A stretch of DNA of 64,000 nucleotides from a virus (lineage: Duplodnaviria > Heunggongvirae > Uroviricota > Caudoviricetes), in IMG/VR virus record IMGVR_UViG_2718217859_000011, positions 1 through 64,000 of that record. One strand, written 5' to 3'. Of the stretch, positions 36,128 to 64,000 are shown one piece after another; the stretch's first letter is position 1, and each line of letters starts with the position of its first letter. The notes below the pieces were generated by a model. It worked only from the letters and a program-made list of their open reading frames with translations. It was not told where the DNA came from and did not search any database. Made by a program: the position numbers and the translations under genes.

Positions 36128-36720
36128 CCCCTGAATCCTGCCGGGATCTGGCTGTAGTCCACGTTGTCGTAACTGGCTTTGAAGTACGGGTCCTCGCGTC
36201 TGGCTGCAGATACTGCAGGAACTTCCCAGGATTCTTCGAAATGACGATCCGGACCAAAGAACGTGACAGCCTGTTTCACAAATTGTGTGCCGCTGTTACC
36301 CATCGCAGATACCCAGCCCGCGTAGCGTTTCACACCTTCCAGCATGGTTTCGGGGTTTACCCCCTCATTCAAACGGGCTTTCCAGGCTTTGAAGGCTGCA
36401 GATTTTAAATTGCCACCAGCACGTTTGGGATAGGCCAGCCATGCCTGCTCAAACTCCGGAGAGTATTCCGGTCGGTTTGAACGAACTCGCACAGACTCAT
36501 CAGCAGATGCACCAACAGCTATTGGTTCATTGACTGGTTCTTTGACTGGTTCAAAAGAGTGACTGGTTCTGGGTGAATCTCCTGCACTACCCCCTGGTGC
36601 AACTCCTGCACTACCTGGTGAATTTGCTGCACCAGATAGTGAATTATTTGCACTACCCCCTAGTGAATCTCCTGCACCATCAAGATGAAGGAGATAGATA
36701 TTACTTGTGTGGGGTAGTGA
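36124..36720 (-). pseudogene. 5'-truncated ORF remnant (unknown lambdoid gene) cut at the Mu-like junction
   Basis: Frame stays open for 76 codons upstream of the tracked GTG start (36492) with no start codon, ending two codons inside Mu-like DNA; Gly/Ser/Ala/Pro-rich repeats then a C-terminal domain. Confidence 0.4.
36531..36681. repeat. tandem direct repeats (3x TGACTGGTTC; ~5x 21-24-bp units)
   Basis: CATTGACTGGTTC / TTTGACTGGTTC / GAGTGACTGGTTC followed by GGTGAATCTCCTGCACTACCCCCT-like units. Confidence 0.6.
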
Positions 36721-36723
36721 TCA

Positions 36724-36859
36724 ATTCTGGGCGGACTTAGTGCAGCCTGGTAGAACCAGCAAGCCTTGTGTGGCGCGGGGTGTGGTGATTTAGTGTGATT
36801 CTGGGCGGATTTGTGAGAAATGACCAAAAACGCTTTTTTTTGCGCTTTTTTCTGGGCGC
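36724..36859 (+). promoter_or_regulatory. putative transposase end-binding repeats (three TTCTGGGCG motifs)
   Basis: TTCTGGGCGG at ~36725 and ~36799, TTCTGGGCGC at ~36850, within 140 bp of the inferred left end; spacing resembles Mu L1-L3. Confidence 0.35.
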
Positions 36860-37019
36860 TTTTGATCTGGTTCTGCTACAAACTTAACGGGTTTTAAATG
36901 CTTTTAAAAAAGTGTTTTATCCTTACCCGTTTTCCTCAATTTGTTCTCATCTGTGTGTTCGGTTTTGTTGTGGTTATTGCTGATTAGCTAACAGCACACG
37001 CCCCGCCAAAACGAGGCGC

Positions 37020-37682
37020 TTATGCTGATTTCTTGTTTACAGGCTTAGTTTCTTGCTCCGGTGTGACGGGAACGCGATCACCTGGTGTTCCAGCACAGAA
37101 AATAGCTTTGGCGCGGCGCAAAATCTCTTTGTCATTTTCCTCATCGCCAGCTAATGCCATGCAAACAGCGTCTTTAAGCGATTGCCTGATGTTCAGGCTT
37201 TGAATGGCCTTCCTTTGTTCCTCAAGTTCGCTATCGGCTTGCTTGGTTTGCCTGGTGGGTTGCTGTAGGCGTTCAAGGACTCCTTTGATGCCAATACAAC
37301 ACAGCATATCAATAAGACGCTCTCTATCTTCTGGAGTAGCTCGCCTTAGTATTTCATCGACAATACTTGTGTTTGGGCGGTTAACGTCTTCTGTAGGCAC
37401 CTTTTTTTCTATTATTGGATCACGATCGCCCTCACCGTAGACCAGCCATTCCAGTGATACATTCTCTAATTTTGCTATCGTAGCGACCACATTTAGGCCG
37501 GGAGTGGTGCCTTTCTCAAAGTAGTTATTTATGGTCGAGTACGGCAACCCCCAGTCTGAGGTGGCTTTACGCAGACTCCTAGTGCCAACCAGTTGCTTGA
37601 TTCTGTCCTGAATGCTTTCTTTTCTATTCTGAGAAAAGGAAAAATCATCGGCGGTTTGTTTACTCACTTTCTTTCCTCTCAA
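37020..37682 (-). CDS. putative Mu-like repressor (c-like)
   Basis: 220 aa, transcribed leftward as first gene of the element, divergent from ner; HTH-like segment LRKATSDWGLPYSTINNYFEKG; assignment mostly by position. Confidence 0.5.
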   Translation of the reverse strand: MRGKKVSKQTADDFSFSQNRKESIQDRIKQLVGTRSLRKATSDWGLPYSTINNYFEKGTTPGLNVVATIAKLENVSLEWLVYGEGDRDPIIEKKVPTEDVNRPNTSIVDEILRRATPEDRERLIDMLCCIGIKGVLERLQQPTRQTKQADSELEEQRKAIQSLNIRQSLKDAVCMALAGDEENDKEILRRAKAIFCAGTPGDRVPVTPEQETKPVNKKSA

Positions 37683-37787
37683 TCTATTGATTTACAACAC
37701 ATTTCTACAAAAAGACTTTCTTTTCACCAAAGCAAGAAAAGAAAGCTTGTAATTTTCTATTTATGGATCAATACTTATATCCGAAGG

Positions 37788-37807
37788 GATAACACGGCGG
37801 TGTTATC
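37788..37807. promoter_or_regulatory. operator-like palindrome between repressor and ner
   Basis: Perfect inverted repeat GATAACACGGCGGTGTTATC plus a third GATAAC half-site 7 bp downstream, ~30 bp before the ner start. Confidence 0.4.
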
Positions 37808-37835
37808 CGCACGGATAACTTTTAAGGGTAACCTA

Positions 37836-38072
37836 ATGATGGTTAGAAATGAAGTAATGAACAAAGACTGGCACCGCGAGTACATCGTTGCCGCTGTGCA
37901 CACCAAAGGTTTTACATTGCGTGAACTTTCTGAACGCGCTGGTCTAAAAAAAGACTCTTTAAAAAATGCACTGTATCGCTCATGCCCTAAATATGAACGC
38001 ATCATAGCCGATGCTATTGGTGTGGAACCTGCGGAGATCTGGCCAAGCCGGTATGCCAGTAAGGCGGCGTAA
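37836..38072 (+). CDS. ner: DNA-binding protein Ner
   Basis: 78 aa; DWHREYIVAAV...SLKNAL...IIADAIGVEPAEIWPSRY recalled as Mu Ner-like. Confidence 0.8.
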   Translation: MMVRNEVMNKDWHREYIVAAVHTKGFTLRELSERAGLKKDSLKNALYRSCPKYERIIADAIGVEPAEIWPSRYASKAA

Positions 38073-40114
38073 TGTTTTATTCAGCCAATGAGCTGGCCGG
38101 TCTTCCTGGTTTGCCCGGTACAGTTCAGGGGGTGCGCTGGACGCTCAATCGGATCACAGATACGCACCCGGAATGGAAGCGCAAGCGCGAAGGCACCAAA
38201 GCATTCGAGTATCACATCGACTGCCTGCCCGCTGAAGCGCAGAAAGTTTTACGTAAGCGCCTGACCCATCAGGTTCTGGAAGATGCACAACTGCCCGCCG
38301 TGGTTGAGCAGAAGGCAGTTAAAAACGTCGCCGTTCGCGATGAACTGGAAGTGATGGTCAAATGCCCGGAACTGGCATTACGCGAAGTCCAGGCACTGAC
38401 CGACAAGCAAAAGGCCATTGCTGATGCGCGGATATTGCTGGCTACTGAAGTGCATAAACTGCGTGAATACGCCGGAATGACCAGGAAGGCCGCGTTAAAG
38501 CACATCGTTGATGGTGTGCGCATGGGGGCGTTGCCTGACCGCATTATCGAAGCAGCGAATACTGCAAATGCACGTCAGGGAAAGCGAACCGGTGTCAGCA
38601 CCGGCAGCCTGGATAGCTGGTACTCCAGCTGGGTGATGGCGCGCGGTGATGCCAATCAGTTACTGGCGTTACTGGCTCCCGGTCATCATAAGGGAACACC
38701 GTGGGAGCAGGTCTGGTGGTTGAGCGATTTCTTTATGTTCTATCGCTCATGGAAGCGCCCGACCGTTGAATATGCGTATCGCGAGTTTTCAGCCTGGTGG
38801 CATGAGAAGCACGCGAACGATGCGGGAATGCTGGCGGCACTGCCTTCCGTTCACGCAGTAAGACGGGTATTAAGCAGTGTCCCGGTGATTGTTAAGGAGC
38901 GTTTCCGCTCCACCGGTTCAGCCTGGCGTTCGCTCAATCCCTTTGTGCGACGCGACTGGAGCACATTACCGGTTAATGCGGTATGGGTCGGGGATGGTCA
39001 CTGTATGAAACTGATGGCATTCAGCCCTGCCACCGGGAATACATTCCGGCCAGAAGTGACGCTGGTTATGGATGCAGGACAACGCTTTATTGTGGGCTGG
39101 TCGCTGTCCCTGTCGGAGAACGTGGTGGCCGTTGCTGATGCATTGCGTCATGGCATGTCACAACACGGAATACCGCTGATTTATTACTCCGATAACGGGG
39201 GCGGTGAAAAAAACCGGGTGCTTGATGCCGATATTACCGGGATTTTGCCCCGGCTGGGTGTGGAACATCACACGGGGATACCAGGTAACCCGCAGGGGCG
39301 CGGGGTAATAGAACGGGCAAACAAAGGAATACCCAAAGATGTGGCTCTGAGTTTCCAGACGTACTGCTCAAAAAATGCAGACAAGGAAACGGTGATGATG
39401 CAGCAACGCATCACACAGTCAGCCATTAAGGCCACCCACAAAGGGAAGGAGCTGACAAAGCGGCAGGTTAAAGCAATGGGAGAAGTCCCCACCTTTGAGC
39501 AATTGATGGCCGCAATAGAGCTGGAGGTAAAACGGTATAACAACCGCCCACACAGCAGCCTTCCCCGCAAAGAGGATGGCGAACATTACAGCCCGGCAGC
39601 GTATCGCCGGAAACTGATAAAAGAGCAGAAAGCTGAAATCGACATGCTGTCGCCGGAAGAACTTCACGAAATGTTCCGACCGGAAAGCATCTGCACAGTG
39701 CGACGCGGTGAAGTGGTGTTATTCAGAAACATCTATTTCTCCACAGAACTGGCAGCAGAGCACGGAAATGAAGTCAGGGTTTGTTACGACATTCACGACG
39801 CAAACAGCGTGATTGTCAGGCGGATGGACGGTTCTTATATCTGCGATGCCATCTGGAACGGTAACAAGGTTGATGCGTTCCCTAAAGCTGTTATCGAACA
39901 ACAGCAGGAGAAACGCACCAGAGGCCGCATTGCACGGGCCGCGCAGAAAATCGAAGAGGCTAAACGCGAGCTTACTCCGGCTATTACGCAGAAACCTGAC
40001 TTTAATTTTGGATTTGGTCTGGAGCGCCCGGAGAAAAAGGAAAAAGAAGAACTTTATTTATTCGCATCTGAACGCGAACGCAATTTAAAGAAAAACGGCA
40101 CAAACAACCGTTAA
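38072..40114 (+). CDS. A: Mu-type DDE transposase A
   Basis: 680-aa ORF after ner; size and organisation as MuA. Confidence 0.9.
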   Translation: MFYSANELAGLPGLPGTVQGVRWTLNRITDTHPEWKRKREGTKAFEYHIDCLPAEAQKVLRKRLTHQVLEDAQLPAVVEQKAVKNVAVRDELEVMVKCPELALREVQALTDKQKAIADARILLATEVHKLREYAGMTRKAALKHIVDGVRMGALPDRIIEAANTANARQGKRTGVSTGSLDSWYSSWVMARGDANQLLALLAPGHHKGTPWEQVWWLSDFFMFYRSWKRPTVEYAYREFSAWWHEKHANDAGMLAALPSVHAVRRVLSSVPVIVKERFRSTGSAWRSLNPFVRRDWSTLPVNAVWVGDGHCMKLMAFSPATGNTFRPEVTLVMDAGQRFIVGWSLSLSENVVAVADALRHGMSQHGIPLIYYSDNGGGEKNRVLDADITGILPRLGVEHHTGIPGNPQGRGVIERANKGIPKDVALSFQTYCSKNADKETVMMQQRITQSAIKATHKGKELTKRQVKAMGEVPTFEQLMAAIELEVKRYNNRPHSSLPRKEDGEHYSPAAYRRKLIKEQKAEIDMLSPEELHEMFRPESICTVRRGEVVLFRNIYFSTELAAEHGNEVRVCYDIHDANSVIVRRMDGSYICDAIWNGNKVDAFPKAVIEQQQEKRTRGRIARAAQKIEEAKRELTPAITQKPDFNFGFGLERPEKKEKEELYLFASERERNLKKNGTNNR

Positions 40115-40132: not shown

Positions 40133-41026
40133 ATGAGTTTAATTACGCAATTAAATGACGTAATGGCCCGTCGCGGCTATACGCAGACCCACGTCGCCCG
40201 TGCTATTGGTCGTAGCAGCGCCGTTATCAGCCAGTATTTGCAGGGTAAATATCAGGGCGATATGTCTGATATTGAAGAACGCATTTCTGCCTTTGTGACC
40301 CGTGAGCGGGAAAAAGAAAACAGCCGCCGTATTAAAGCAAAGTTTGTGACCACCGGTATGGCTGCCAAAGGACTGGAGGTGCTGGCCTACGCTCACCTGG
40401 AATGTGAAATCTGTGTGCTGTATGGCGCAGCAGGTCTTGGCAAAACAATGATTCTGCGTGAATACGCCGCCAGAAACCGGGATGCGGTCCTGATTGAAGC
40501 CGACCCGGGCTATACAGCCAGAACACTGCTTGAGGAGCTGTGCCGCCAGCTGGGGGTAAAAGTTCGCGGCAATATCCACGAACTGATTGATGCATGTGTG
40601 CGAGAACTGCGTGATTCCGGTCGTCTGCTGATGGTGGACGAGGCTGAACTGCTCCCCTATCGCGCACTGGAGGTTCTGCGCCGTCTGCATGACAAAGCGG
40701 GTATCGGGGTTGTTCTGGCGGGTATGCCTCGCCTTCTGATTAACCTCAAGGGGCGTCGTGGTGAGTTCGCCCAGTTATACAGCCGCGTGGCGCTGGCGCT
40801 TAACCTGGGCGATACGTTGTCGCAGGAAGATTTTAACCAGATAGCTACCGGGTTGATGCCGGAAGCAGCAGAGCCGGAAATCAGCGAGGCGCTTTATACA
40901 CGTTCGCTGGGTAATGCCCGCCGTCTGTTCAAGCTGGCGCGTGGTGTGTACCGGATTTGTGATATCAGCGATGCGCCGGTCAGTGTGCAGGCCATTGATA
41001 AATTCGCAGAAATGTTAATTCACTGA
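40133..41026 (+). CDS. B: transposition ATPase B (AAA+)
   Basis: 297 aa; N-terminal HTH, Walker A GAAGLGKT, Walker B LLMVDEAE. Confidence 0.9.
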   Translation: MSLITQLNDVMARRGYTQTHVARAIGRSSAVISQYLQGKYQGDMSDIEERISAFVTREREKENSRRIKAKFVTTGMAAKGLEVLAYAHLECEICVLYGAAGLGKTMILREYAARNRDAVLIEADPGYTARTLLEELCRQLGVKVRGNIHELIDACVRELRDSGRLLMVDEAELLPYRALEVLRRLHDKAGIGVVLAGMPRLLINLKGRRGEFAQLYSRVALALNLGDTLSQEDFNQIATGLMPEAAEPEISEALYTRSLGNARRLFKLARGVYRICDISDAPVSVQAIDKFAEMLIH

Positions 41027-41265
41027 TGGAGAACAAGACGATGGACAAGCAGACCATTAACGCCGTCCGTTCCCGTGCCCGTGTGGCCATCCACACCACT
41101 GGTGGTCGTGTAACGGGACAACATCACCGTTTACCTGTGGTTTATGCCTGCCCGCCCGTGGGTGGTCCTGTATGGCCGGTAACGGAAATCATCCAGACAT
41201 TCAGCGGCCTGCGCCGCGTGGTTAAAACGTCCTGTATCGACGGCTGCACCGTCGTATGGCAATGA
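41026..41265 (+). CDS. hypothetical early protein
   Basis: 79-aa ORF coupled to B stop. Confidence 0.3.
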   Translation: MENKTMDKQTINAVRSRARVAIHTTGGRVTGQHHRLPVVYACPPVGGPVWPVTEIIQTFSGLRRVVKTSCIDGCTVVWQ

Positions 41266-41277
41266 GAGGAAATCAGA

Positions 41278-41493
41278 ATGGCGGTCAAGTTAGAAGTAAT
41301 TATCTATACCGATGAAAACGGTACGCTTCGTGTCAGGAGCATGGGGGCTGTTGATAAAAAAGGATTTACGGATGAAGAGGTCGGAGTAAGACAACGGTTA
41401 TGGGAGGTAATGAATCAAACTCTTAATAAAGAATTTAACGGCGTTGATTTATTTTCTGTTGGCGTGGAACCCTGCGCGCAAAACACACATTAA
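41278..41493 (+). CDS. hypothetical early protein
   Basis: 71-aa ORF with AGGA SD. Confidence 0.3.
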   Translation: MAVKLEVIIYTDENGTLRVRSMGAVDKKGFTDEEVGVRQRLWEVMNQTLNKEFNGVDLFSVGVEPCAQNTH

Positions 41494-41522
41494 TTTGTAA
41501 ATATCACTGAGGTAATTTAATT

Positions 41523-42167
41523 ATGACGACTGAAAATAAAGTTAAGCAATACACGAAAACTGAAGCGCCTGAAGGTTACTGGGTGGATGCCCGTGGCGTA
41601 ATGACACCTGAAAGTCTTATCAAAGATATTGACCGCGACCGTGAGCAGCTGGTCGGTGAGCTTGTGGAGATGGTGATTGCTGCCTCCGCCTCACTGCGTG
41701 AACTGAAACTGCGTGCGTTTGGTGATATTCAGGCGTTTATTGACCTGTCGGCGGAGAAATACGGCGCTGTGAAAGGCGGTAAAAAAGGGAATATCACGCT
41801 TTACAGCTTTGACGGGCGTTACAAGATTCAGCGCGCCATGCAGGACCGTATCGCGTTTGATGAACGCATTCAGACCGCGAAGTCGCTGATTGATGATTGC
41901 CTGGCTGACTGGACGGAAGGTGCACGTCCTGAAATAAAAGCCATCATCAGCGAAGCATTCAGCACGGACAAGGAAGGCAACATCAACACCGGGCGCGTTC
42001 TGGCTCTGCGTCGTCTCGATATTACGGAGGAGCGCTGGGATAACGCCATGAAACTGATTGGTGAAGCCGTCCAGGTGGTTGGCAGCAAAAGCTATATCCG
42101 CGTGTATGAGCGCGTCGGTGATTCCGACGAATACCGCGCAATCCCGCTTGATATTGCAGGGGTTTAA
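41523..42167 (+). CDS. DUF3164-like Mu early protein
   Basis: 214 aa; resembles a family common in Mu-like early regions (recalled, not searched). Confidence 0.4.
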   Translation: MTTENKVKQYTKTEAPEGYWVDARGVMTPESLIKDIDRDREQLVGELVEMVIAASASLRELKLRAFGDIQAFIDLSAEKYGAVKGGKKGNITLYSFDGRYKIQRAMQDRIAFDERIQTAKSLIDDCLADWTEGARPEIKAIISEAFSTDKEGNINTGRVLALRRLDITEERWDNAMKLIGEAVQVVGSKSYIRVYERVGDSDEYRAIPLDIAGV

Positions 42168-42168
42168 C

Positions 42169-42402
42169 ATGCATCAGGATATCAAAGAGTACAGAGCCGG
42201 AAATAGTTGCGCGGCGTATTCGCTGGGCGCGTCCAGAGCAGAACAACGCGGCGATTATGCCGAGGCTGAAAAGTTGTGGCGTAAGGCAGCGCAAAGCCCG
42301 TGTAGCACCCTGCGCCGCATCTGGGCTGAACATCGTGCGGAGTTCTGCGCTAACGCTCACCTGAAGGGATGGAGGCCACGCCATGAATGCGAAGAACTTT
42401 AA
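42169..42402 (+). CDS. hypothetical early protein
   Basis: 77 aa from MHQDIKEY within tracked ORF 42058..42402. Confidence 0.3.
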   Translation: MHQDIKEYRAGNSCAAYSLGASRAEQRGDYAEAEKLWRKAAQSPCSTLRRIWAEHRAEFCANAHLKGWRPRHECEEL

Positions 42403-42574
42403 TAAGCAGTATCCGCCAGGGACTCGCTTCATGCACACGGCACATCCGGCGTTGCGCGGTGGCCGGGTGGTGAAAACCGTTGCACCGGCCAGAGATTTTA
42501 AATGTGGTTGTGTGGTTGAAATTAATGTCGAGCCTTATTTCGTAAAAGTCGAAACACTGAAAGCAGCGCATTAA
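42383..42574 (+). CDS. hypothetical early protein
   Basis: 63-aa ORF overlapping previous stop. Confidence 0.3.
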   Translation: MNAKNFNKQYPPGTRFMHTAHPALRGGRVVKTVAPARDFKCGCVVEINVEPYFVKVETLKAAH

Positions 42575-42654
42575 TTTAATTCGTTTTTAATTGTTATTTA
42601 AAACAGGCGTAAACCCGCCGGGGCTGGCTTACGCCTGAATCTGAGGGATTCATT

Positions 42655-43383
42655 ATGGAAAATAAAAGCAAATATATCGCCAGAATTAAAAAACTGTTAC
42701 GCCTTGCCAGAGGAACATCAAGCCCGGAAGAAGCCGCTAACGCTATTGCAAAAGCCCAGGCTTATATGCGCCAGCATGGTATCAGCGAAAACGACGCGGA
42801 ATTGTTCGACATTCAGGAAGCTGCCAGCGCGGGTGCGCCGAGTGATGCCAGTACACCGCCGCGTTATATGCACATCCTGTGTGACCTGGTATGTAAAGCC
42901 TTCGGTGTCGAGTGTTACATCTCCGGTGAATACCGGGCTTCTGGTTCACTCAAACGTTACGTTCGTTTTTATGGTCCTGACAGCCGCCCGGAAATTGCGG
43001 CCTACGCGTTTGATGTGCTTTCCCGTCAGATGATGGCAGAGCGTAATCAATATCAGGATAAACACTGTAAGCGTTGCAAACCATCCACGCGGGTGGCCCG
43101 TGGCGACCAGTTCTGCGAAGGCTGGGTCTTTGGTGCCCGTGATGTCATTGCGGTGTATGACGTCTCCCCGGAAGAAAAAAGCCGCCTTGAGCTTTACAGA
43201 GAAAACCTGCACAGGACTAAAGTGCGGCGCGACGGGGATATGCGCACAGCTAAAGCGTGTCGGGGTGCAGAGTTTGCCGCTACTGCTGGTTTTATCGCCG
43301 GGAAAAATGCCAGGTTGCATCAGGGGGTTAATGGTCAGAGCAACAGGCCGCTGGCGCTGGGAGGGGATAACGATGGCTTTTAA
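42655..43383 (+). CDS. DUF2786-like protein
   Basis: 242 aa; N-terminal IARIKKLLRLARGTSSPEEAANAIAKAQAYM resembles DUF2786 (recalled). Confidence 0.4.
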   Translation: MENKSKYIARIKKLLRLARGTSSPEEAANAIAKAQAYMRQHGISENDAELFDIQEAASAGAPSDASTPPRYMHILCDLVCKAFGVECYISGEYRASGSLKRYVRFYGPDSRPEIAAYAFDVLSRQMMAERNQYQDKHCKRCKPSTRVARGDQFCEGWVFGARDVIAVYDVSPEEKSRLELYRENLHRTKVRRDGDMRTAKACRGAEFAATAGFIAGKNARLHQGVNGQSNRPLALGGDNDGF

Positions 43384-44412: not shown

Positions 44413-44416
44413 TCAG

Positions 44417-45791: not shown

Positions 45792-45798
45792 ACAGGAA

Positions 45799-56254: not shown

Positions 56255-56264
56255 GGAGCAAAAC

Positions 56265-57173
56265 GTGATAGTCAACGTTAAAAACGTCAAACAGATTTTT
56301 ATCAATCTGAAGGCCACCTTCCAGAAAGCCTTCGACCAGTCACCAACTGACTGGCAGAAGGTGGCAATGGAAGTGCCATCAAACGGCAAGGAGAACGACT
56401 ACAGCTGGTTAAGTCGTTTCCCGAAAATGCGCGAGTGGATTGGTGACAAGGTCGTTAAATCACTGGCGGCATTTAACTACACCATCCGTAACAAGGACTG
56501 GGAAGCCACGGTTGAAGTCGATCGTAACGACATCGAGGACGACCAGATTATGGGCTATGCCCTTCAGGCGAAAGGGGCCGGACAGTCGGCGGCAGAGCTA
56601 CCAGCAGATATTGTGGCGTCCCTTATCAGTAACGGTTTTACCAATCCCTGTTACGACGGCCAGCCGTTCTTTGATACCGACCACCTGGTCGCCGGTAAAT
56701 CGGTGTCCAACAAAGGCACCAAAAAACTCAAAGTTGGCTCGCTTGCCGAGGCGAAAGCCTCCTACGGTGCCGCCCGTACATCCATGCGCAGCCTGAAAGA
56801 TGACGAAGGCGCATCCCTTAAAATTCGCCCGAATCTGCTGGTTGTGCCACCGGCGCTGGAAGATGACGCGAACTACCTGATGACCGCCGAGAAGTTCCCG
56901 GACGGTACGCCGAACCCGTACCGCAACACCGCCGACGTGCTGGTGATGCCGGAGCTGGCGTCGGATTCTGCATGGTTCCTGTTTGACACCACCAAACCGG
57001 TGAAACCGCTGATTTATCAGCTGCGTAAAAAGCCTGTTTTTGTGGAGCAGACGGACTACAGCAGCGACAACGTGTTCGCGCGTAAGAAGTTCCTGTTTGG
57101 TGCCGAAGCGCGCTGTAACGGCGGTTACGGCTTCTGGCAGATGGCATTTGGTTCTGATGGTACGACGGAGTAA
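56265..57173 (+). CDS. major head subunit (Mu T-like)
   Basis: ~302 aa from a GTG 7 nt after AAGGAG; tracked ORF starts upstream at 56223. Confidence 0.8.
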   Translation: MIVNVKNVKQIFINLKATFQKAFDQSPTDWQKVAMEVPSNGKENDYSWLSRFPKMREWIGDKVVKSLAAFNYTIRNKDWEATVEVDRNDIEDDQIMGYALQAKGAGQSAAELPADIVASLISNGFTNPCYDGQPFFDTDHLVAGKSVSNKGTKKLKVGSLAEAKASYGAARTSMRSLKDDEGASLKIRPNLLVVPPALEDDANYLMTAEKFPDGTPNPYRNTADVLVMPELASDSAWFLFDTTKPVKPLIYQLRKKPVFVEQTDYSSDNVFARKKFLFGAEARCNGGYGFWQMAFGSDGTTE

Positions 57174-57176: not shown

Positions 57177-57518
57177 ATGGAAAAGGTGATTGAAATTACC
57201 GCCCGCCGTGAAGGTTTTCGCCGCTGCGGTGTGGCGCACAGTGCAACCACGAAGGCATGGCCTGCGGATGCGTTCACCCCGGAACAGCTGGCGGTGCTGA
57301 AGGCTGACCCCATGCTGATTGTGGTGGAGCGCGATAAAGCGTCCGGCCAGAACGACGCGCTCCGGGGTGATGAACTGGCCGCACAGCTTGATGCCGAGCG
57401 TCAGAAAGTCAGCGAACTGACGGCGCAACTGGAAGAAGAGCGCCAGAAAGTCAGTGAACTGACCGCACGGCTGAACGCCGCACAGAAAACACAAAAAGCG
57501 GACAAAAAGGAGAAGTAA
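57177..57518 (+). CDS. hypothetical protein
   Basis: 113 aa; C-terminal coiled coil with repeated ERQKVSELTAQL. Confidence 0.4.
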   Translation: MEKVIEITARREGFRRCGVAHSATTKAWPADAFTPEQLAVLKADPMLIVVERDKASGQNDALRGDELAAQLDAERQKVSELTAQLEEERQKVSELTARLNAAQKTQKADKKEK

Positions 57519-57521
57519 CCC

Positions 57522-57953
57522 ATGTCTTACGCCACACCGGAACAGTTCATCAGGGCGTTCAGTGAACGCGAGGCACGCACACTGACGGATGAAGACATGA
57601 CGGGATTCATCGACGAAGAAAAGCTGGCCTCCGCGCTTGCGCGTGCCAGTGCCCAGATTGATGGCTATCTGGTGGGGCGTTACCGGACCCCGTGGCCTGA
57701 CAGCCCGGGGATTCTGGTGGGTTACTGCTGCGATATCGCCCGTTATCACCTGGCGACCGATTACCGTATCTGCTCAGAAGAAATTCAGATGCGCTACCGG
57801 GACGCCATCCGCTTTCTGGAGAAAGTCGCGGCAGGACAAATCAACCTCGGACGGGATACGTCCGGCAGCGTGATCCAGTCATCGTCACAGGTGCGTATCC
57901 GCTCCGGCTCCCGTCAGTTCGGGCGTGAGTCCACGCGGGGAGGTGCATTCTGA
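57522..57953 (+). CDS. Mu gp36-like head-tail protein (DUF1320-like)
   Basis: 143 aa at the position after the major head gene. Confidence 0.55.
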   Translation: MSYATPEQFIRAFSEREARTLTDEDMTGFIDEEKLASALARASAQIDGYLVGRYRTPWPDSPGILVGYCCDIARYHLATDYRICSEEIQMRYRDAIRFLEKVAAGQINLGRDTSGSVIQSSSQVRIRSGSRQFGRESTRGGAF

Positions 57954-58006
57954 TTACTGAAATTGAACGGGCGCTGGTTGAGCGTCTGCGCTGTGGTCTG
58001 GGGCAT

Positions 58007-58603
58007 ATGGTGCAGGATGTCCGCACCTATGCCGGTGAACTGGATGAAGACCCGGGCCGGATTGTTCGCAGCCTTCCGGCAGCCTGGGTGACGTTCGGCG
58101 GCATCGTGAAAACCGAACGCTATTCCACGTCACGCCGGAAATACATTGCCACCGGACGCTTTGTGGTTGTGGTGGGTGATTACAACACCCGCAGCGAACA
58201 GAGCGCCAGACAGGGAGGCACCGTCCGGGATGAAGTCGGGACAAACCTGCTGGTTGAATCCGTCCGCCGTCTGCTGACCGGTCAGGATTTGGGGCTGGAG
58301 ATTGATTATTTCGAACCCGGGCGGGTCAGGACGCTGTTTAACACCGGCGTGGCAGAGCGGGCAATGTCCGTATTTGCCTGTGAGTTCGATACCCGCTGGG
58401 TGGAGCACGCGCTGGAGAACGGCAAATGGCCGGAGCGCGGCGCAGAAGCGGACCGCCTCTTCAACCGCTACCACGGCAGGCTGTCAGACCCTGACCCGGA
58501 ACTGCTGAACCTTGGCATCCTGTACCAGATGCAGGACAGCGACGCTGAAATATCAGGGCTGACTGAATTAAGAGAGCAACAGCATGAACAAAATGAAGGT
58601 TAA
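58007..58603 (+). CDS. Mu gp37-like protein
   Basis: 198-aa tracked ORF; frame is open upstream to ~57953, so a non-ATG start is possible. Confidence 0.5.
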   Translation: MVQDVRTYAGELDEDPGRIVRSLPAAWVTFGGIVKTERYSTSRRKYIATGRFVVVVGDYNTRSEQSARQGGTVRDEVGTNLLVESVRRLLTGQDLGLEIDYFEPGRVRTLFNTGVAERAMSVFACEFDTRWVEHALENGKWPERGAEADRLFNRYHGRLSDPDPELLNLGILYQMQDSDAEISGLTELREQQHEQNEG

Positions 58604-58826
58604 GGCGGCTCCCGGGATGAAGTTCCCGATGGAGGATAACGCCCGGAAATACATCACCACGGAAGCAGTGACCGTTGAGAACACCGCTTATTACCGGCGC
58701 GCCGTTCAGGACGGTGACCTGATTCTGGTGAAGGATGAGCCTGAAACCACCGTGACGGCTGAACAGGACGCCGTGCAGGTAAAAGCGAAGGCGAAGAGAG
58801 AGAAACAGGTGGATTCCGATGAGTGA
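58584..58826 (+). CDS. Mu gp38-like small protein
   Basis: 80 aa directly before the sheath gene. Confidence 0.4.
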   Translation: MNKMKVKAAPGMKFPMEDNARKYITTEAVTVENTAYYRRAVQDGDLILVKDEPETTVTAEQDAVQVKAKAKREKQVDSDE

Positions 58827-60240
58827 AATTCAGTTTGACACCATTTCGGGCGGCATCCGTAAGCCCGGTGTGCATTTTGAGTTCAATACCCGGCTGGCCG
58901 TTAACACGCTGCCGGGTAACGAACAGCGTGTTCTGGTGATTGGCCCGATGCTGTCAGGCGGCACCGCCACGCCCCTGAATGCGGTTTCCGTGTATTCCGA
59001 AGACGAAGCGGATTTGTATTTCGGGGCCGGTTCGCTGGCCGCTGCAATGGCGCGCGCGGCTATTAATGCCAACAGCTATCTGCAACTGGATGTTATCGGT
59101 ATTGCAGACAGTGGCGCAGGAAAGGCAGCAACCGGCGCGGTTACCGTCAACGGTACGGCAATCAGCAGCGGCACACTGTCGGTATGGGTTGCTGGTGAGC
59201 AGGTCACGGTGGATGTGGAAACCGGCGATGAACCGTCGAAAATCATTCCTGCACTGGTGGAGGCAATGACGCAGACGCCATCGCTTCTGGTCACGGGGGA
59301 ATACAAATCAGAAGCCTCTCAGCTGACGGTGACCACCCGGACCAAAGGAGCCTGGGGGAATGACATTACCCTGTCAGCATCCACCACGGCAGGTGGTCTG
59401 ACCGTGAGCGCCACGCCGATGGCGAACGGTGAAATGGACCCGGATATTCAGCCCGCACTGGATGCGGTCTTTGCCGCCGGTCACAACATTCTGATTTGTC
59501 CGTTCAGTACCACGCCAGCCCTTGCCGCCCTGAAGCAGCATCTGGAGAAAACCGGGAACGCGATGGAACAGCGCGGCGCGATTGGCTGTGCGGGCTGGAC
59601 GGGCAGTCTCGGAAACGGGATCACCCTGGCAGCCGGTGTGAACAGCGGGCGCGTGTCCGTCCCCTGGTATCGCGGCTCCGTGAAGCTGCCAGCGGTACTG
59701 GCTGCCATCTACGGCGCTGTGATGGCGGGCGAGGAAGACCCGGCGCGTCCGCTGAACTCGCTGGCGCTGTCCGGGCTGGATGTGGTCGCCATGTCACAGC
59801 GTGAAAGCCGTAACGAGCAGGAAAACGCCCTGCATAACGGCCTGACGCCGGTTGAGGTTGGCCCGGGTAACACGGTGCAGATTGTGCGTGCGGTCAGTAC
59901 GTACACGGTTAACGCACAGGGCGTGACTGACGTCTCGTTACTGGATATCACGTCCATCAGAACGCTGGACTACACCCGCAAGGCGTGCCGCGAACGCATC
60001 AGCCTTCGCTTCCCGCGCGAAAAACTCAGCACCCGCACTATCGCAAAAGTGGAAAGCGAACTGTATGACGTGCTGATTAAGCTGGAGGAAGCGGAAATTC
60101 TGGAGAACGTGGAAGCGAACAAGGCAAAGCTGCGCGTTCAGCGAAACGGGAAAGATGCAAACCGTCTCGACTGCGTGGTTCCGGCGGATGTGGTTAACGG
60201 CCTGCATGTGTTTGCCGGTCGCATCGACATGATTTTGTAA
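58819..60240 (+). CDS. tail sheath protein
   Basis: 473 aa directly before tube and tape-measure genes; Mu L position. Confidence 0.85.
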   Translation: MSEIQFDTISGGIRKPGVHFEFNTRLAVNTLPGNEQRVLVIGPMLSGGTATPLNAVSVYSEDEADLYFGAGSLAAAMARAAINANSYLQLDVIGIADSGAGKAATGAVTVNGTAISSGTLSVWVAGEQVTVDVETGDEPSKIIPALVEAMTQTPSLLVTGEYKSEASQLTVTTRTKGAWGNDITLSASTTAGGLTVSATPMANGEMDPDIQPALDAVFAAGHNILICPFSTTPALAALKQHLEKTGNAMEQRGAIGCAGWTGSLGNGITLAAGVNSGRVSVPWYRGSVKLPAVLAAIYGAVMAGEEDPARPLNSLALSGLDVVAMSQRESRNEQENALHNGLTPVEVGPGNTVQIVRAVSTYTVNAQGVTDVSLLDITSIRTLDYTRKACRERISLRFPREKLSTRTIAKVESELYDVLIKLEEAEILENVEANKAKLRVQRNGKDANRLDCVVPADVVNGLHVFAGRIDMIL

Positions 60241-60252
60241 GGAGCGCGGTAA

Positions 60253-60627
60253 ATGTCCATTAAAGAATATGTCGGCTCGATTGTGCTGGAGGTGGACAGC
60301 CAGGAAATCGAGATCACCGACTTCGATGTTCAGATCAACACCGGGCGAAAGCTGGTCAAGACCATGAACAAAACTGGCAGGGCAAAAGGCTTTGCCCGTG
60401 GCATTGCCACTTACGATATTTCAGTTTCGGCGGTTATCCCTGATACCAACGAGCCGGACTGGGAAAATCTGGAAGGTGTGAAAATTTCAATTTATCCGCT
60501 CAGCAACAGCGGCAAGCGCACCTCCTATCTGGACTGCTTCACTGTTGAAGTGGGTGAGAAATACACCGTCGACAGTGAAGCGAAAATTGATATCAAAATG
60601 GCTGCACTCAGGAAGGTGACAGGATGA
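60253..60627 (+). CDS. tail tube protein
   Basis: 124 aa after the sheath gene. Confidence 0.75.
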   Translation: MSIKEYVGSIVLEVDSQEIEITDFDVQINTGRKLVKTMNKTGRAKGFARGIATYDISVSAVIPDTNEPDWENLEGVKISIYPLSNSGKRTSYLDCFTVEVGEKYTVDSEAKIDIKMAALRKVTG

Positions 60628-61007
60628 CTTTGATTAATACACAGACCGGCGAACTGTCTGATGGCGTGGTATTTAACGGCACCGTTCATAAAAACTTTGA
60701 GCTGCGTCTGCCGGTCATGCGTGATAACGGGCAGGCACTGGAAGAAACCGAAGAACGCTTTCAGACGGTGGACGGCTTCGCGGCAGATTATTACTACCGT
60801 TGCGCAGTGATGGCGGCAACGCTGGTCCGTCTTGGGGATATCCCGCAGGAAGAACTGACGGCGGATCTGTTGCACGACAACATGACGCCGGACGATTTTA
60901 ATATTCTGCTGGCATCACGCAACGTCCTGAAGGTAAAGCGGAACGGCGGGAATCCCGGCTCGCCGGACTCCGGCTCGCAGTCCTTATCCTCGGGCGCTAC
61001 GGAATAA
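60624..61007 (+). CDS. tail assembly chaperone
   Basis: 127-aa acidic protein between tube and tape measure. Confidence 0.5.
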   Translation: MTLINTQTGELSDGVVFNGTVHKNFELRLPVMRDNGQALEETEERFQTVDGFAADYYYRCAVMAATLVRLGDIPQEELTADLLHDNMTPDDFNILLASRNVLKVKRNGGNPGSPDSGSQSLSSGATE

Positions 61008-61021
61008 CCGAAGAGCAAATC

Positions 61022-61180
61022 ATGACCATGAGCCGTCCCGAGCTGGACGGCTGGCTTGCCGCCGTTGACAGGCTGAACGGCGGCGGTTCAGGAAGAAAGG
61101 ACACCTCACAGACCACCCGCCAGTCATTTAAATCCCTCAGAAAGAAACGCAGAAAAGGTAAGCAGAAAAATGGCCGGTAA
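61022..61180 (+). CDS. small basic ORF (possible chaperone frameshift extension)
   Basis: Untracked 52-aa ORF with KKRRKGKQK tail, in the -1 frame relative to the chaperone, overlapping the tape-measure start. Confidence 0.25.
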   Translation: MTMSRPELDGWLAAVDRLNGGGSGRKDTSQTTRQSFKSLRKKRRKGKQKNGR

Positions 61181-63176
61181 TTTCAAAGTTGGCATGACCC
61201 TGACTGCGAAGGACGAAGCCTCGCAGGTTCTGGAAAAGGGACAAAAACAGGTTATCAAAGCCACCGAAGGTGTAACAAAGGCAACACGGAAGGCAGGCGC
61301 AGAGCAGAAGCGTACCGAGCAGGAAAGCATTAACAGCACGAAAAAGGCCGCAAAAGAGATACAGCGTGCCGCCCGTGCCCGGGAAACGCTCGGTATTCGT
61401 GCAGAACGTGAAATCCGGCGTGAAATTTATCAGACAGTTGCCAGCTATAACCGTCTGGCCCGCGCCGGTTTTGAATCTGCGCAGGAGCAGGAGCGCGCCA
61501 TGCAGGCCGCCCGGGAAAAAGCCCGGGCACTCAAGCGTGAACTGGATGGCGTCACTCAGGCTCAGATGAAGATGGCGAAAACACCTGTTATCCCGGAGCC
61601 GGGGCGTTTTGCACGTGCGGCAGCATTTGGCGGGAATGCCGTGACAATAGGTGGTGGTATCGCGGCAGGTGCTGCCATTATGGCGCAGCCGGTCAAAAAG
61701 CAGATGAGCTACGAACGCCAGCTGGCAATGATGGCCAATACCGCCTTCAGTGATGGCGGACTGGAGGGGCGCAAAGCCGGTCTTGAGCAGATGAAAAGCA
61801 GCATCCGTAACGCGGTGACCTATGGTGGCGGCACAAAAGAGGATGCAGCCGAAACACTGGATGCCCTGCTGAAAGATGGCGGTATTTCATTTGACACAGC
61901 CAGCAAGTGGCTGCCTGAACTGATGAAATACGCCACGGCTTCCGGTGCATCAGCGACAGACCTGGCTAATGTGATGCTTAAGGGCAAAAAGACTTTTGGA
62001 TTCAGGGATGAAGATATTTCCACCGTTCTGAATATGGCAATTGCAGCGGGCAAAGAAGGCAGCTTTGAACTGAGCGACATGGCCCGATGGTTATCTTCGC
62101 AACTGGGGTCAGCGTCAGCTGCGGGGATGAAAGGCAAAGATGATTTCGTCAAGATTCTGGCACTGAATGAAGCTGCTGCCATCACGGCGGGAAGCAGTGA
62201 TGAGGCCGGAAATAACGTGTTTAACCTGCTGGCTAAACTGACCAGCCACGATATTGAAACAGCGGCAAAGAGCATTGATTACAACGGTAAAGGAATTGAT
62301 TTTTCCGGTACGCTGGTTCAGGCGCGCGAGCATGGGCTTGATCCGATAGATGCGCTGTCCAGCCTGATAGACAAAATCGTTGCCAGCGATAAACGCTTTC
62401 AGGAGTTGCAAAAGAAACTGGCCTCCGCCCGGGATAAAGGTGAGCAGACGGCTGTTTACGATTCGATGGCAAAACTCCTTGAAGGCTTTGGTGTCGGGAA
62501 ACTGGTTGCAGACCAACAGGCGTTAAAAGCGTTGCTGGCTTACCGTAACAACCCTGAATACCGCAAGAAGGTTGAAGATGCGGTTAATCAGCAGCGCACC
62601 CTGCCGGAAGGTCAGCGCGCGGGTGATGTGGATTTTAACTTCATATCCGGCCTCAATGACTTTAAAACCGAACAGGCTAAAAACACGCTTGAATTTTCAC
62701 AAATGGATGGTGTGAAAAAACTGGCTGATGCATCCGGGACTGTGGCCGATGCCATAAGCTGGGCGGGTGAAAAATTTCCGGGGCTGACCACAGCAGTGGT
62801 GACAGCTACCACAGCCATTAAAGCGATGACAGCAGCGGCCGTCACGTTTGCGGGGCTGAAACTTATTACCGGTAATCCAGTGTCCGGAGGAGCAGATAAG
62901 CCCGATGATACTGGGGATACTGCATCCAAAGTTAAAGATATCAGTGAAGTCGCTTCCGGCAATCAGGGACGTCTGGGAAAAATAATGGGCGCTGCCGGAA
63001 AAATTGCAACCATTTACGCAGGCTATGAGGCCGCAGAAGAACTTTATGGGGCTGTTGTTGGCGATACCATCAAGAACTTTACAGATAATCATGGTTTGTT
63101 TTTTGCAGACGATGGCTCCTTGTTCTTTACCCGTGAAGGAATGCTTAAAGTAAGCGACTCGTCAGAACCGTATTGA
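61170..63176 (+). CDS. tail tape measure protein (3' end runs into IS66)
   Basis: 668-aa Ala/Lys-rich coiled-coil ORF; its last ~9 codons lie inside the IS66 terminal sequence. Confidence 0.8.
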   Translation: MAGNFKVGMTLTAKDEASQVLEKGQKQVIKATEGVTKATRKAGAEQKRTEQESINSTKKAAKEIQRAARARETLGIRAEREIRREIYQTVASYNRLARAGFESAQEQERAMQAAREKARALKRELDGVTQAQMKMAKTPVIPEPGRFARAAAFGGNAVTIGGGIAAGAAIMAQPVKKQMSYERQLAMMANTAFSDGGLEGRKAGLEQMKSSIRNAVTYGGGTKEDAAETLDALLKDGGISFDTASKWLPELMKYATASGASATDLANVMLKGKKTFGFRDEDISTVLNMAIAAGKEGSFELSDMARWLSSQLGSASAAGMKGKDDFVKILALNEAAAITAGSSDEAGNNVFNLLAKLTSHDIETAAKSIDYNGKGIDFSGTLVQAREHGLDPIDALSSLIDKIVASDKRFQELQKKLASARDKGEQTAVYDSMAKLLEGFGVGKLVADQQALKALLAYRNNPEYRKKVEDAVNQQRTLPEGQRAGDVDFNFISGLNDFKTEQAKNTLEFSQMDGVKKLADASGTVADAISWAGEKFPGLTTAVVTATTAIKAMTAAAVTFAGLKLITGNPVSGGADKPDDTGDTASKVKDISEVASGNQGRLGKIMGAAGKIATIYAGYEAAEELYGAVVGDTIKNFTDNHGLFFADDGSLFFTREGMLKVSDSSEPY

Positions 63177-64000
63177 TATTTACTGAGAGCTCAGATCAAC
63201 TTTCCAGGGCAACAGATCGCGTACCCGGTTTGCCGGCCAGTCCTGGATATGTTCAATGACGTAACGCAGCCACTTTTCTGGCTCCACATTGTTCAGACGG
63301 CATGTGCCGATCAGCGAGTACAACACCGCCGCATGTTCACCACCGCTGTCGGAACCCGCGAACATCCAGTTTTTCCGGCCTACGGCCACTCCCCGTAAGG
63401 CGTTCTCTGCGATGTTGTTGTCGATTTCCACCCAGCCATTACTGCAGTACACGTTCAGTGCATCCCACTGTTTCAGCAGGTATGCGAACGCTTTTGCCGT
63501 ATCTGAGTGACGCGACAGTGTTTTCATCTGTTGCTGTATCCAGTCATACAGTGACTGCATCAGTGGCGCGGCTCTGGCTTTTCTTGCCGCCAGACGCTGT
63601 TCTGCTGAACAGCCCCGGACCTCTGCCTCGATGGCATACAGTTCACCGATACGCTGCAGGGCTTCCGTGGTGATGTAGGTGGGCGCTCTTGCATGCACAT
63701 CGTGGATTTTTCTCCGGGCATGAGCCATACACGCGGCTTCCGTTATTCTGCCGGATTCGTATAACGCCCGGTAACCACCGTAAGCATCGGCCTGAAGCAC
63801 ACCGCTGTAACCGGCCAGGTGATTTTGTGGATGGATACCTTTCCGGTCCGGACTGTACGCGAACCAGACCGCCGGGGGCATCTGTGAACCGGCGTTACGG
63901 TCATCACGGACGTAGACCCACAGCCGGGCTGTCCGGGTTTTACCGCTGCCCGGCTCCTGGACCGGGACGGGGATATCATCAGCATGGACTTTACCGGGCA
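63150..64000 (-). mobile_element. IS66-family insertion sequence, one end (rest beyond window)
   Basis: GTAAGCG terminal sequence at ~63150 next to the transposase stop. Confidence 0.7.
63180..64000 (-). CDS. IS66-family transposase (TnpC), 5'-partial
   Basis: Frame open to the window edge; [31 protein letters not shown]...[14 protein letters not shown] recalled as IS66 TnpC-like. Confidence 0.85.

What the first reader, a model, noticed from the sequence alone, without database searches (positions are those of the whole stretch)
36493..63182. Nested mobile elements: Mu-like prophage inside a lambdoid prophage, then hit by IS66
Lambdoid genes run on the minus strand up to ~36.7 kb, where the last ORF has an open frame for 76 codons upstream of its first start codon and stops two codons into new DNA. 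From there a plus-strand Mu-like genome begins (repressor, ner, A, B ... sheath, tube, tape measure). The lambdoid replication/immunity genes expected beyond the nin region are absent from the window. At ~63150 an IS66-type end (GTAAGCG) lies inside the 3' end of the tape-measure ORF, with the IS66 transposase running off the window. Both phages are therefore probably defective.
Basis: partly seen in the sequence, partly recalled or inferred. Interest (0 to 1): 0.55.

Follow-up and report, generated by a model that had tools for sequence, protein, structure and literature searches.

The report
Mu-like prophage nested in lambdoid prophage

Summary
The observation and the interpretation both hold. 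Lambdoid homology ends at 36707. A Mu-like left end, TGTGGGGTAGTG..., starts at 36708. It splits a 272-aa HTH_36/DnaD_N replication gene, and the window keeps the 3' part, about 193 codons. From 36708 to 63149 the Mu-like genome is collinear with full-length relatives and all checked genes are intact. Its first 13.4 kb is 100% identical to copies at three other chromosomal sites in other genomes. At 63150 the right inverted repeat of ISCro1 (IS66 family, 2,699 bp) interrupts the tape-measure gene after codon 660 of 746.

Both far junctions lie outside the window. I predicted the small fusion ORFs they should create, and both exist exactly in the public protein collection, on one 5,213,998-bp E. 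coli chromosome that also carries the window's proteins. ANP10375.1 is the replication-gene N-terminus joined to the Mu right end, in the frame that fits a 4-bp duplication, CTTG. ANP10386.1 is the ISCro1 left end, the 8-bp duplication TGCTTAAA and the tape-measure C-terminus.

One correction: this Mu-like family makes 4-bp, not 5-bp, target duplications. Mu-like phages inside lambdoid Stx prophages are already published. Interest is low.

The parts
1..36707 (-). Resident lambdoid prophage. The window holds tail, head, terminase, lysis, tRNA, Q and nin-region genes. Its immunity genes and upstream early genes lie beyond the Mu insert, outside the window.
   Evidence: Window 18020-36707 is 99.79% identical to the RM9088 prophage, and window 7490-18028 is 94.6% identical.
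36124..36707 (-). 3' fragment (about residues 80-272) of the lambdoid replication gene. The intact protein is 272 aa with an N-terminal HTH_36/DnaD_N domain. The fragment has lost its start codon and its DNA-binding domain.
   Evidence: Residue-for-residue match to WP_000061516.1 from 'SNIYLLHLDG...' onward.
36704..36707 (.). Left copy of the 4-bp target duplication, CTTG.
   Evidence: The native target reads GATATTACTTG|AGTTACC. A 4-bp duplication is seen in four relatives. The fusion ORF predicted for 4 bp exists exactly, and those predicted for 3, 5 and 6 bp do not.
36708..36870 (+). Mu-like left end: a TG terminus and three direct TTCTGGGCG repeats at 36725, 36799 and 36850. These are presumed transposase-binding sites.
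   Evidence: There were 4 matches in the window against 0.64 expected, and 3 of them fall here.
37020..37667 (-). Mu-like repressor, 215 aa, Phage_CI_repr family.
   Evidence: Identical to ANP10428.1.
37778..37817 (.). Inverted repeat between the repressor and ner genes. It is a candidate operator.
   Evidence: pair I2. Its function is inferred only.
37836..38072 (+). Ner-like early regulator (HTH_35).
38072..40114 (+). MuA-type DDE transposase, 680 aa.
   Evidence: Pfam families HTH_Tnp_Mu_1 and Mu-transpos_C above their cut-offs, with a weak rve match below its cut-off. The identical protein occurs at 10 or more different chromosomal sites.
40133..41026 (+). MuB-like AAA+ transposition activator.
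   Evidence: Pfam families AAA_22 and TniB.
41041..46353 (+). Early/middle region: small ORFs, DUF3164, DUF2786, DUF4752, GemA (44917-45315) and Mor (45886-46353). All are intact.
46841..47881 (+). Lysis cassette: two holins and an M15 endolysin.
   Evidence: Precomputed Pfam hits. The ORFs are intact.
48304..57173 (+). Head genes: DUF1804, DNA methyltransferase, TerL (49593-51233), Mu-type portal (51237-52832), F, G, protease (54734-55858) and major head gpT (56265-57173).
57177..61180 (+). Head-tail joining and tail genes, including gp36, gp37, DUF2635 and sheath (58819-60240). Three small ORFs of 124, 127 and 52 aa follow the sheath and have no Pfam hit. The 124-aa ORF (60253-60627) sits where the tube gene is expected.
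   Evidence: The sequence is identical to a Logan contig.
61170..63149 (+). Tape-measure gene, codons 1-660 of 746. The ORF as it stands reads 8 codons into the IS and stops at 63176.
63142..63149 (.). Left copy of the 8-bp ISCro1 target duplication, TGCTTAAA.
   Evidence: The predicted far-junction ORF MSRLLLK+RDNELK... exists exactly as ANP10386.1. An 8-bp duplication is shown for another ISCro1 copy.
63150..64000 (-). ISCro1 (IS66 family), right inverted repeat GTAAGCGACTCGTCAGAACC and the 3' part of tnpC (63180 to the window end). The whole element is predicted to span 63150-65848.

Best explanation
This is three mobile elements nested by two successive transposition events.

1. A lambdoid prophage was already resident.
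2. A Mu-like transposable phage integrated through its MuA-type DDE transposase into the prophage's replication gene, between codons 80 and 81. The integration made a 4-bp staggered cut, leaving CTTG on both sides.
3. An ISCro1 (IS66 family) then transposed into the Mu-like tape-measure gene after codon 660, duplicating 8 bp (TGCTTAAA).

Shown: both left junctions in the window, and both right junctions through exactly predicted fusion ORFs on the source chromosome. Also shown are the intactness of every other Mu-like gene in the window and the random, multi-site distribution of the same phage.

Inferred consequences:
- The lambdoid prophage has its initiator split. Its N-terminal HTH domain is separated from the rest by about 37 kb.
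- Its Q and late genes are separated from the early rightward promoter by the insert, so it can probably neither replicate nor switch on its late genes.
- A portal frameshift, if real, adds a further defect.
- The Mu-like phage lacks the last 86 residues of its tape measure, and the IS is probably polar on the baseplate and fibre genes. It most likely cannot build tails, although its repressor, ner, A and B genes and its left end look functional.
- The IS probably came last, because a tail-less phage could not have infected this lineage.
For: Left Mu junction:
- Lambdoid homology runs to 36707, and Mu-like homology starts at 36708.
- 13 insertions share TGTGGGGTAGTG and differ immediately upstream of it.
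- The intact target gene and the native target sequence come from the near-identical RM9088 prophage.

Mu identity and integrity:
- Pfam and precomputed hits identify the Mu-type genes.
- The element is collinear with 35.8-kb full-length relatives in Ec55 and E2348/69.
- All 28 genes from the repressor to TerL are open, and window 36708-50114 is 100.000% identical to L007, L013 and L015.

Target duplication:
- Only removal of 4 bp restores ypdF, eutC, a TonB-dependent receptor gene and a phage capsid-protease gene in four independent insertions.

Right Mu junction:
- The 88-aa ORF predicted from the Mu right end, CTTG and the lambdoid remainder is in the collection exactly (ANP10375.1, CP48_25735, on a contig of 5,213,998 bp). 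The 3-, 5- and 6-bp versions are absent.

Same chromosome:
- The window's tape-measure fusion has the same longest contig, 5,213,998 bp.
- The window's sheath, gp37, portal, MuA, repressor and lambdoid Q are ANP10392, 10394, 10402, 10426, 10428 and 10436, which is the window's gene order.

IS:
- Its end is at 63150.
- ISCro1 is 2,699 bp and makes an 8-bp duplication.
- The predicted far-junction ORF MSRLLLK plus tape-measure residues 661-746 exists exactly as ANP10386.1, CP48_25790, on the same contig.
- Ten locus tags lie between it and the right-junction ORF. That fits a complete Mu right arm, which has 10 genes in E2348/69.
Against: The DNA of the two far junctions was never read. They are supported only at protein level, by exact ORF matches and by accession and locus-tag order.

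No E. coli complete RefSeq genome in the local collection (5,426 genomes) holds either window junction. The arrangement therefore rests on one chromosome, plus short-read contigs from about 10 samples that end within 30 nt of both junctions.

Defectiveness of either phage is not tested. The portal frameshift sits in a C5 homopolymer and could be a sequencing error.
Confidence: 0.94

Rival explanations
1. The 36707/36708 junction comes from a Mu-mediated rearrangement, either an inversion, deletion or replicon fusion between two Mu copies or some other recombination. On this reading it is not a simple insertion, and the DNA beyond the Mu right end is not the rest of the lambdoid gene.
For: Replicative Mu transposition is known to cause such rearrangements (established knowledge). 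The right end is outside the window. Short-read contigs stop 30 nt beyond the left end.
Against: The fusion ORF expected from a simple insertion, in the correct frame for the family's 4-bp duplication, exists on the same chromosome. Its accession lies 51 entries from MuA, as expected for one contiguous prophage plus the IS.
Confidence: 0.03
2. The order of events was different. ISCro1 entered the tape-measure gene while the Mu-like prophage sat elsewhere in this lineage, and the already tail-less Mu then transposed within the cell into the lambdoid prophage.
For: The A and B genes and the left end are intact. Short-read contigs break exactly at the Mu left end, which would also happen if there were two Mu copies.
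Against: Full lytic (replicative) transposition normally kills the cell (established knowledge). Only one chromosomal context for the tape-measure::IS allele was found. Infection followed by IS insertion is the simpler history.
Confidence: 0.1
3. The arrangement is an assembly chimera that joins a lambdoid contig, a Mu-like contig and an IS.
For: All three are repeated sequences in E. coli genomes. No RefSeq complete genome in the collection shares the junctions.
Against: Independent Logan assemblies from about 10 sequencing runs contain a 26,502-bp contig. Its last 12 kb is identical to the window up to 63179, and its length places its start at 36678, which is 30 nt (one k-mer minus 1) beyond each junction. 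Both far junctions were annotated as ORFs with duplications of exactly the expected length. A chimera would not produce those.
Confidence: 0.02
4. The short ORF 36124..36492 is a natural gene, and 36.7 kb is just a mosaic module boundary of the lambdoid phage.
For: The N-terminal HTH module of this gene is found fused to many different sequences in databases.
Against: The open frame upstream of 36492 matches the intact 272-aa protein exactly and is cut at the first base of a Mu end. The 122-aa product was found only on two short draft contigs whose ends fall within or close to the gene.
Confidence: 0.01

Closest known systems
Mu-like phages inserted into Stx (lambdoid) prophages of STEC clonal complex 119 (PMC10132054; GenBank LC727895 and LC727881)
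   Same: A transposable Mu-like phage sits inside a lambdoid prophage. Of 10 Mu-like phages in 13 closed genomes, 6 were in mobile elements. The GenBank record annotates a 4-bp duplication at the insert.
   Different: Those inserts are Sp18-like, and their transposase is only 44% identical to the one here. The host phage, the insertion site and the secondary IS hit are also different.
Mu-like prophage of EPEC E2348/69 in eutC (NC_011601.1, about 2715935-2751670), and its relatives in Ec55, S13 and SCAID WND1-2021
   Same: Same phage family: about 94-95% DNA identity over most of the genome, the same ends (TGTGGGGTAGTG... and ...GAAGTTACA) and a 4-bp duplication. The SCAID copy also sits inside another prophage, in its head genes.
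   Different: These are different insertion sites, and their tape-measure genes are uninterrupted.
Bacteriophage Mu
   Same: The gene order is the same: c, ner, A, B, semi-essential early region, mor, lysis, head, contractile tail. The left terminus TG (seen in the window) and the right terminus CA (seen in relatives) match Mu's. The left end carries repeated candidate transposase-binding sites. Integration is near-random.
   Different: The duplication is 4 bp, whereas Mu makes 5 bp and B3 makes 6 bp (PMC8705779). No isolated phage in GenBank is close at DNA level. The nearest isolated phages by transposase are Pseudomonas VW-6B at 50%, Yersinia Tongde at 47% and SuMu at 40%.
ISCro1 (IS66 family)
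   Same: 99.4-99.8% identical to annotated ISCro1 copies. It carries DDE_Tnp_IS66 and IS66_C domains, a GTAAGCG terminus and an 8-bp duplication.
   Different: Nothing notable. Only 851 bp of the element lie inside the window.
Lambdoid prophage of E. coli RM9088 (NZ_CP042298.1, about 2.32-2.37 Mb)
   Same: 99.79% identical over window 18020-36707. It provides the empty target site and shows what lies beyond the insert: a hypothetical gene, Rha, DUF4222, YmfL, YmfT (Cro-like) and YmfK (CI-like).
   Different: It has no Mu insert. It has its own ISCro1 in the S49 peptidase gene, an intact portal gene and different tail-tip and fibre genes.

Membership tests
Mu-like transposable phage | MuA-type DDE transposase with the Mu N-terminal DNA-binding domain and the Mu C-terminal domain | tested here: met
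   HTH_Tnp_Mu_1 at 4.4e-10 and Mu-transpos_C at 1.1e-15, both above their cut-offs. The rve core match is weak, at 1.6e-5 and below its cut-off.
Mu-like transposable phage | Adjacent MuB-like AAA+ activator, with an upstream divergent repressor and a Ner-type regulator | tested here: met
   AAA_22/TniB, Phage_CI_repr and HTH_35. The gene order is shown.
Mu-like transposable phage | TG...CA termini with repeated transposase-binding sites | tested here: met
   The left end is TG, with three TTCTGGGCG repeats. The right end...GAAGTTACA with inverted copies of the motif, was read in relatives only. The right end of this particular copy is outside the window.
Mu-like transposable phage | Integration at many unrelated sites, flanked by a short target duplication | tested here: met
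   16 or more different sites. The duplication is 4 bp in four relatives and in this copy by the exact fusion ORF. The length differs from Mu's 5 bp.
Mu-like transposable phage | Genome of about 36-39 kb with Mu-type head genes (portal gp29, F, protease, gpT) and a contractile tail | tested here: met
   Portal_Mu, Phage_Mu_F, Mu-like_Pro_N, Mu-like_gpT and Phage_sheath_1. The relatives are 35.8 kb long.
Mu-like transposable phage | Replication by transposition, and virions that carry host DNA at their ends | not testable with these tools
   This needs induction and virion DNA sequencing.
Lambdoid prophage | Q antiterminator, a nin-region with RusA, a lysis cassette, and lambda-type terminase, portal, head and tail genes in the lambda order | tested here: met
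   RefSeq annotation of the 99.8%-identical RM9088 prophage.
Lambdoid prophage | Divergent cI/cro-type immunity region upstream of the replication genes | not testable with these tools
   It lies outside the window. It is present in the RM9088 homologue as ymfK and ymfT.
IS66 family (ISCro1) | DDE_Tnp_IS66 transposase (TnpC) | tested here: met
   E-value 1.5e-75, plus the IS66 C-terminal element. 99.4-99.8% DNA identity to annotated ISCro1 copies.
IS66 family (ISCro1) | Terminal inverted repeats starting GTAA(G/C)CG, and an 8-bp target duplication | tested here: met
   The right repeat is at 63150. The left repeat, GTAACCGG..., and the 8-bp duplication GTTTCAGC are shown for the RM9088 copy, with the window as the empty site. 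For this copy, the exact far-junction ORF implies TGCTTAAA.
IS66 family (ISCro1) | tnpA and tnpB accessory genes upstream of tnpC | not testable with these tools
   They lie outside the window. They are present in all the other ISCro1 copies examined.

The most novel reading that the evidence does not exclude
The tail-less Mu-like prophage may still be transposition-proficient, since its c, ner, A and B genes and its left end are intact and identical to those of active copies. It could then persist as an inducible intracellular mutator or killer, locked inside a grounded lambdoid prophage. Separately, the consistent 4-bp duplication of this E. coli Mu-like lineage (against 5 bp for Mu and 6 bp for B3) would imply a different strand-transfer spacing in its transpososome.
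Probability: 0.25. Interest if true: 0.3.

Novelty: already known. Interest (0 to 1): 0.12.

Why it matters
It matters little beyond annotation. It is a clean, fully resolved example of how prophages in pathogenic and commensal E. coli are grounded by other mobile elements: one phage inactivates another, and an IS then inactivates the invader.

It is useful as a caution for prophage-boundary callers, because about 37 kb of Mu and IS sits inside one lambdoid prophage. It is also a reminder that this Mu-like lineage leaves a 4-bp scar, not a 5-bp one.

Tried and rejected
(1) Exact-pattern scans for the left junction and for the predicted right junction found nothing in genome contigs or viral contigs. 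The source genome is not in those collections.

(2) A homology search with the fusion protein predicted for a 5-bp duplication gave no full-length hit. The reason turned out to be that the duplication is 4 bp.

(4) BLAST alignments to ISCro1 started at 63135-63139, which suggested that the IS end lay further out. Direct comparison of three other copies shows that the flanks differ right up to GTAAGCG, so those extensions are chance A-rich similarity.

(5) I considered a 5-bp duplication in which one terminal base is assigned to the flank. The native ypdF and TonB-dependent receptor sequences are incompatible with that.

(6) Looking up the 122-aa truncated ORF found only two short draft contigs. 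Both end near the gene and neither contains the junction.

(7) No isolated phage is close to this Mu-like element at DNA level.


Full report
**What is in the window.** The ORF map and base composition show minus-strand genes up to about 36.7 kb, plus-strand genes from about 37.8 kb to 63.2 kb, and then a minus-strand ORF that runs off the end. BLAST of 35500-38100 against 5,426 complete E. coli genomes splits cleanly. Positions 35500-36707 match lambdoid prophages, at 100% in strain RM9088. Positions from 36703-36708 onward match Mu-like prophages at up to 99.6%. No genome contains both halves together. BLAST of 62000-64000 splits in the same way. Tape-measure genes match up to 63149, and ISCro1 (IS66 family) matches after that. 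Again no genome has both.

**The left Mu junction.**
- In RM9088 the interrupted gene is a 272-aa 'helix-turn-helix domain-containing protein', WP_000061516.1. Pfam places HTH_36 and a weak DnaD_N match at residues 17-85. Some database sources name truncated copies 'phage replication protein'.
- The window's minus-strand frame 36705..36124 equals residues about 80-272 of that protein. Upstream of 36707 the frame continues 13 nt into foreign DNA and then stops. The 'ORF' 36124..36492 is a remnant, not a gene.
- Thirteen independent insertions of the same phage (the window, L002, L004 and L006-L015) share TGTGGGGTAGTGA and differ at the base before it. This fixes the Mu-like left end at 36708.
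- Three direct TTCTGGGCG repeats lie within 150 bp of that end. Inverted copies of the motif are visible at the right ends of relatives.

**The Mu-like element.**
- Pfam identifies a CI-type repressor (37020-37667, minus strand), a Ner-like HTH_35 protein, a 680-aa MuA, a MuB-like AAA+ protein, GemA and Mor.
- Precomputed hits on identical contigs add holins, an M15 endolysin, DUF1804, a DNA methyltransferase, a Mu-type portal, F, G, protease, gpT, gp36, gp37, sheath and tape measure.
- Full-length relatives are 35.8 kb long: Ec55 in ypdF and E2348/69 in eutC.
- All 28 genes from the repressor to TerL are open in the window. Window 36708-50114 is 100.000% identical to copies at three other chromosomal locations in other genomes, one of them inside a P2-like prophage.
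- The late genes have the same lengths as in relatives.
- The element is therefore a recently active phage, and its only visible lesion is the IS.
- No isolated phage in GenBank is close at DNA level. By transposase, the nearest are Pseudomonas VW-6B (50%), Yersinia Tongde (47%) and SuMu (40%).

**Target duplication.** In four relatives where both ends could be read, the flanks repeat 4 bp: CGCT in Ec55, CACT in E2348/69, CATT in S13 and ACTT in SCAID. Only removal of 4 bp restores the interrupted host reading frames. Assigning a terminal base of the element to the flank does not rescue 5 bp. The GenBank record LC727895 annotates a 4-bp duplication for a different, Sp18-like Mu phage inside an Stx1a prophage. 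A review-type text gives 5 bp for Mu and 6 bp for B3 (PMC8705779).

**The right Mu junction, outside the window.** The native target reads GATATTACTTG|AGTTACC. I predicted the ORF that a simple insertion would create on the minus strand. It consists of the first 80 codons of the replication gene followed by read-through into the Mu right end. For a 4-bp duplication it ends ...GNSSVTSRFFLG and is 88 aa long. That exact sequence is in the protein collection as ANP10375.1, 'hypothetical protein CP48_25735 [Escherichia coli]', on a 5,213,998-bp contig. The versions predicted for 3, 5 and 6 bp are absent.

The window's own proteins map to the same chromosome and in the window's order:
- the tape-measure::IS fusion has the same longest contig, 5,213,998 bp;
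- sheath is ANP10392;
- gp37 is ANP10394 (CP48_25835);
- portal is ANP10402;
- MuA is ANP10426;
- the repressor is ANP10428;
- the lambdoid Q is ANP10436.

**The IS.**
- Other ISCro1 copies diverge from the window immediately before GTAAGCG, so the IS end is at 63150.
- With the window as the empty site, the RM9088 copy in the S49 peptidase gene shows that ISCro1 is 2,699 bp long and duplicates 8 bp, GTTTCAGC.
- The window's tape measure carries a C-terminal module found in 746-aa variants such as that of strain F163. The IS sits after codon 660, so 86 codons are displaced.
- The far junction should read ...ATGAGCCGGTTAC|TGCTTAAA|CGT..., giving an ORF MSRLLLK followed by residues 661-746. I tested eight variants of the slightly variable tail. 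One exists exactly: ANP10386.1, CP48_25790, on the same 5,213,998-bp contig.
- Ten locus tags separate it from the right-junction ORF. E2348/69 has ten genes in its right arm.

**Independent support.** Logan assemblies from about 10 sequencing runs contain a 26,502-bp contig. Its last 12 kb is identical to the window up to 63179, and its length places its start at 36678. That is k-1 = 30 nt beyond each junction.

**Consequences (inferred).**
- The lambdoid initiator is split, and its nin/Q/late region is cut off from the early promoter by about 37 kb.
- In addition, the portal gene carries a 1-nt deletion in a C5 run relative to RM9088; five other listed genomes show the same 1-nt length difference. 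This may be a real mutation or a homopolymer sequencing error.
- The Mu-like phage lacks the tape-measure C-terminus, and the IS is probably polar on the genes downstream.
- 'Both defective' is therefore likely but untested. The Mu transposition module appears intact.

**Comparison and novelty.** Mu-like phages inside lambdoid Stx prophages are published. In STEC CC119, 6 of 10 Mu-like phages were in mobile elements and several were in Stx phages (PMC10132054), and they are annotated in GenBank. The same family also sits in another prophage's head genes in strain SCAID WND1-2021. RM9088 carries a related Mu-like prophage in chbG that is riddled with IS1, ISEc12, IS66 and ISCro1. The finding is correct, fully explained and ordinary.

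**What failed.** Junction patterns were absent from genome contigs and viral contigs. The search based on a 5-bp duplication misled me at first. The junction DNA itself could not be fetched.

Noticed in passing
window 18183-19774 (indel at about 18515): The lambdoid portal gene is frameshifted by a 1-nt deletion in a C5 run, relative to RM9088. Five other listed genomes align with the same 1-nt length difference, and more than 1,800 genomes carry a near-full-length match. It could be a real extra defect or a homopolymer sequencing error.
   Followed up: partly
window 36704-36707; relatives L004, L020, L021/L022, L002/L023: This E. coli Mu-like lineage leaves a 4-bp target duplication rather than Mu's 5 bp. 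The same length is annotated for an Sp18-like Mu phage in GenBank LC727895.
   Followed up: yes
window 36708-50114 against L007, L013, L015: 13.4 kb of the Mu-like left arm is 100.000% identical to copies at three unrelated chromosomal sites in other genomes, one of them inside a P2-like prophage. This indicates a very recently spreading phage.
   Followed up: partly
window 18021-18028; L025 19676-22374: The near-identical lambdoid prophage of RM9088 carries its own ISCro1 in the S49 peptidase gene, with the duplication GTTTCAGC. The window is the empty site. ISCro1 is evidently active in this group of strains.
   Followed up: yes
window about 62840-63149: The tape-measure gene is mosaic. Its protein diverges from the common 757-aa variants from about residue 560, and DNA homology to the Ec55 and RM9088 relatives ends at about 62839. 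The segment beyond that matches the 746-aa variants such as F163, whereas the last 86 residues are again shared between the two variants.
   Followed up: partly
lambdoid replication gene, codons about 85-87 (window about 36690-36707); proteins P0001, P0007, P0009: Several database proteins share the N-terminal HTH module and switch to unrelated sequence right after '...SSNIYLL(H)', within a few codons of the Mu insertion point. This may be a recurrent breakpoint or insertion spot.
   Followed up: no
window 28379-28632: Two tRNA genes lie between the methyltransferase and TerB-like genes, downstream of Q: tRNA-Arg (tct) and a CAT-anticodon tRNA that RefSeq calls Ile in RM9088. This is the Stx-phage-like layout, but no ORF of at least 110 aa other than the TerB-like one lies next to them, so no StxA-sized ORF is present.
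   Followed up: no
window 22000-24000 and 30000-31000: Low-GC stretches (0.39-0.43) lie inside the lambdoid prophage, between terminase and lysis genes and next to Q. They may be cargo or moron DNA and were not examined.
   Followed up: no
L003 (RM9088 2052385-2101367): RM9088 has a related Mu-like prophage in chbG that carries five IS insertions: IS1 twice, ISEc12, an IS66-family element and ISCro1. It is an extreme case of IS erosion of a Mu-like prophage.
   Followed up: no
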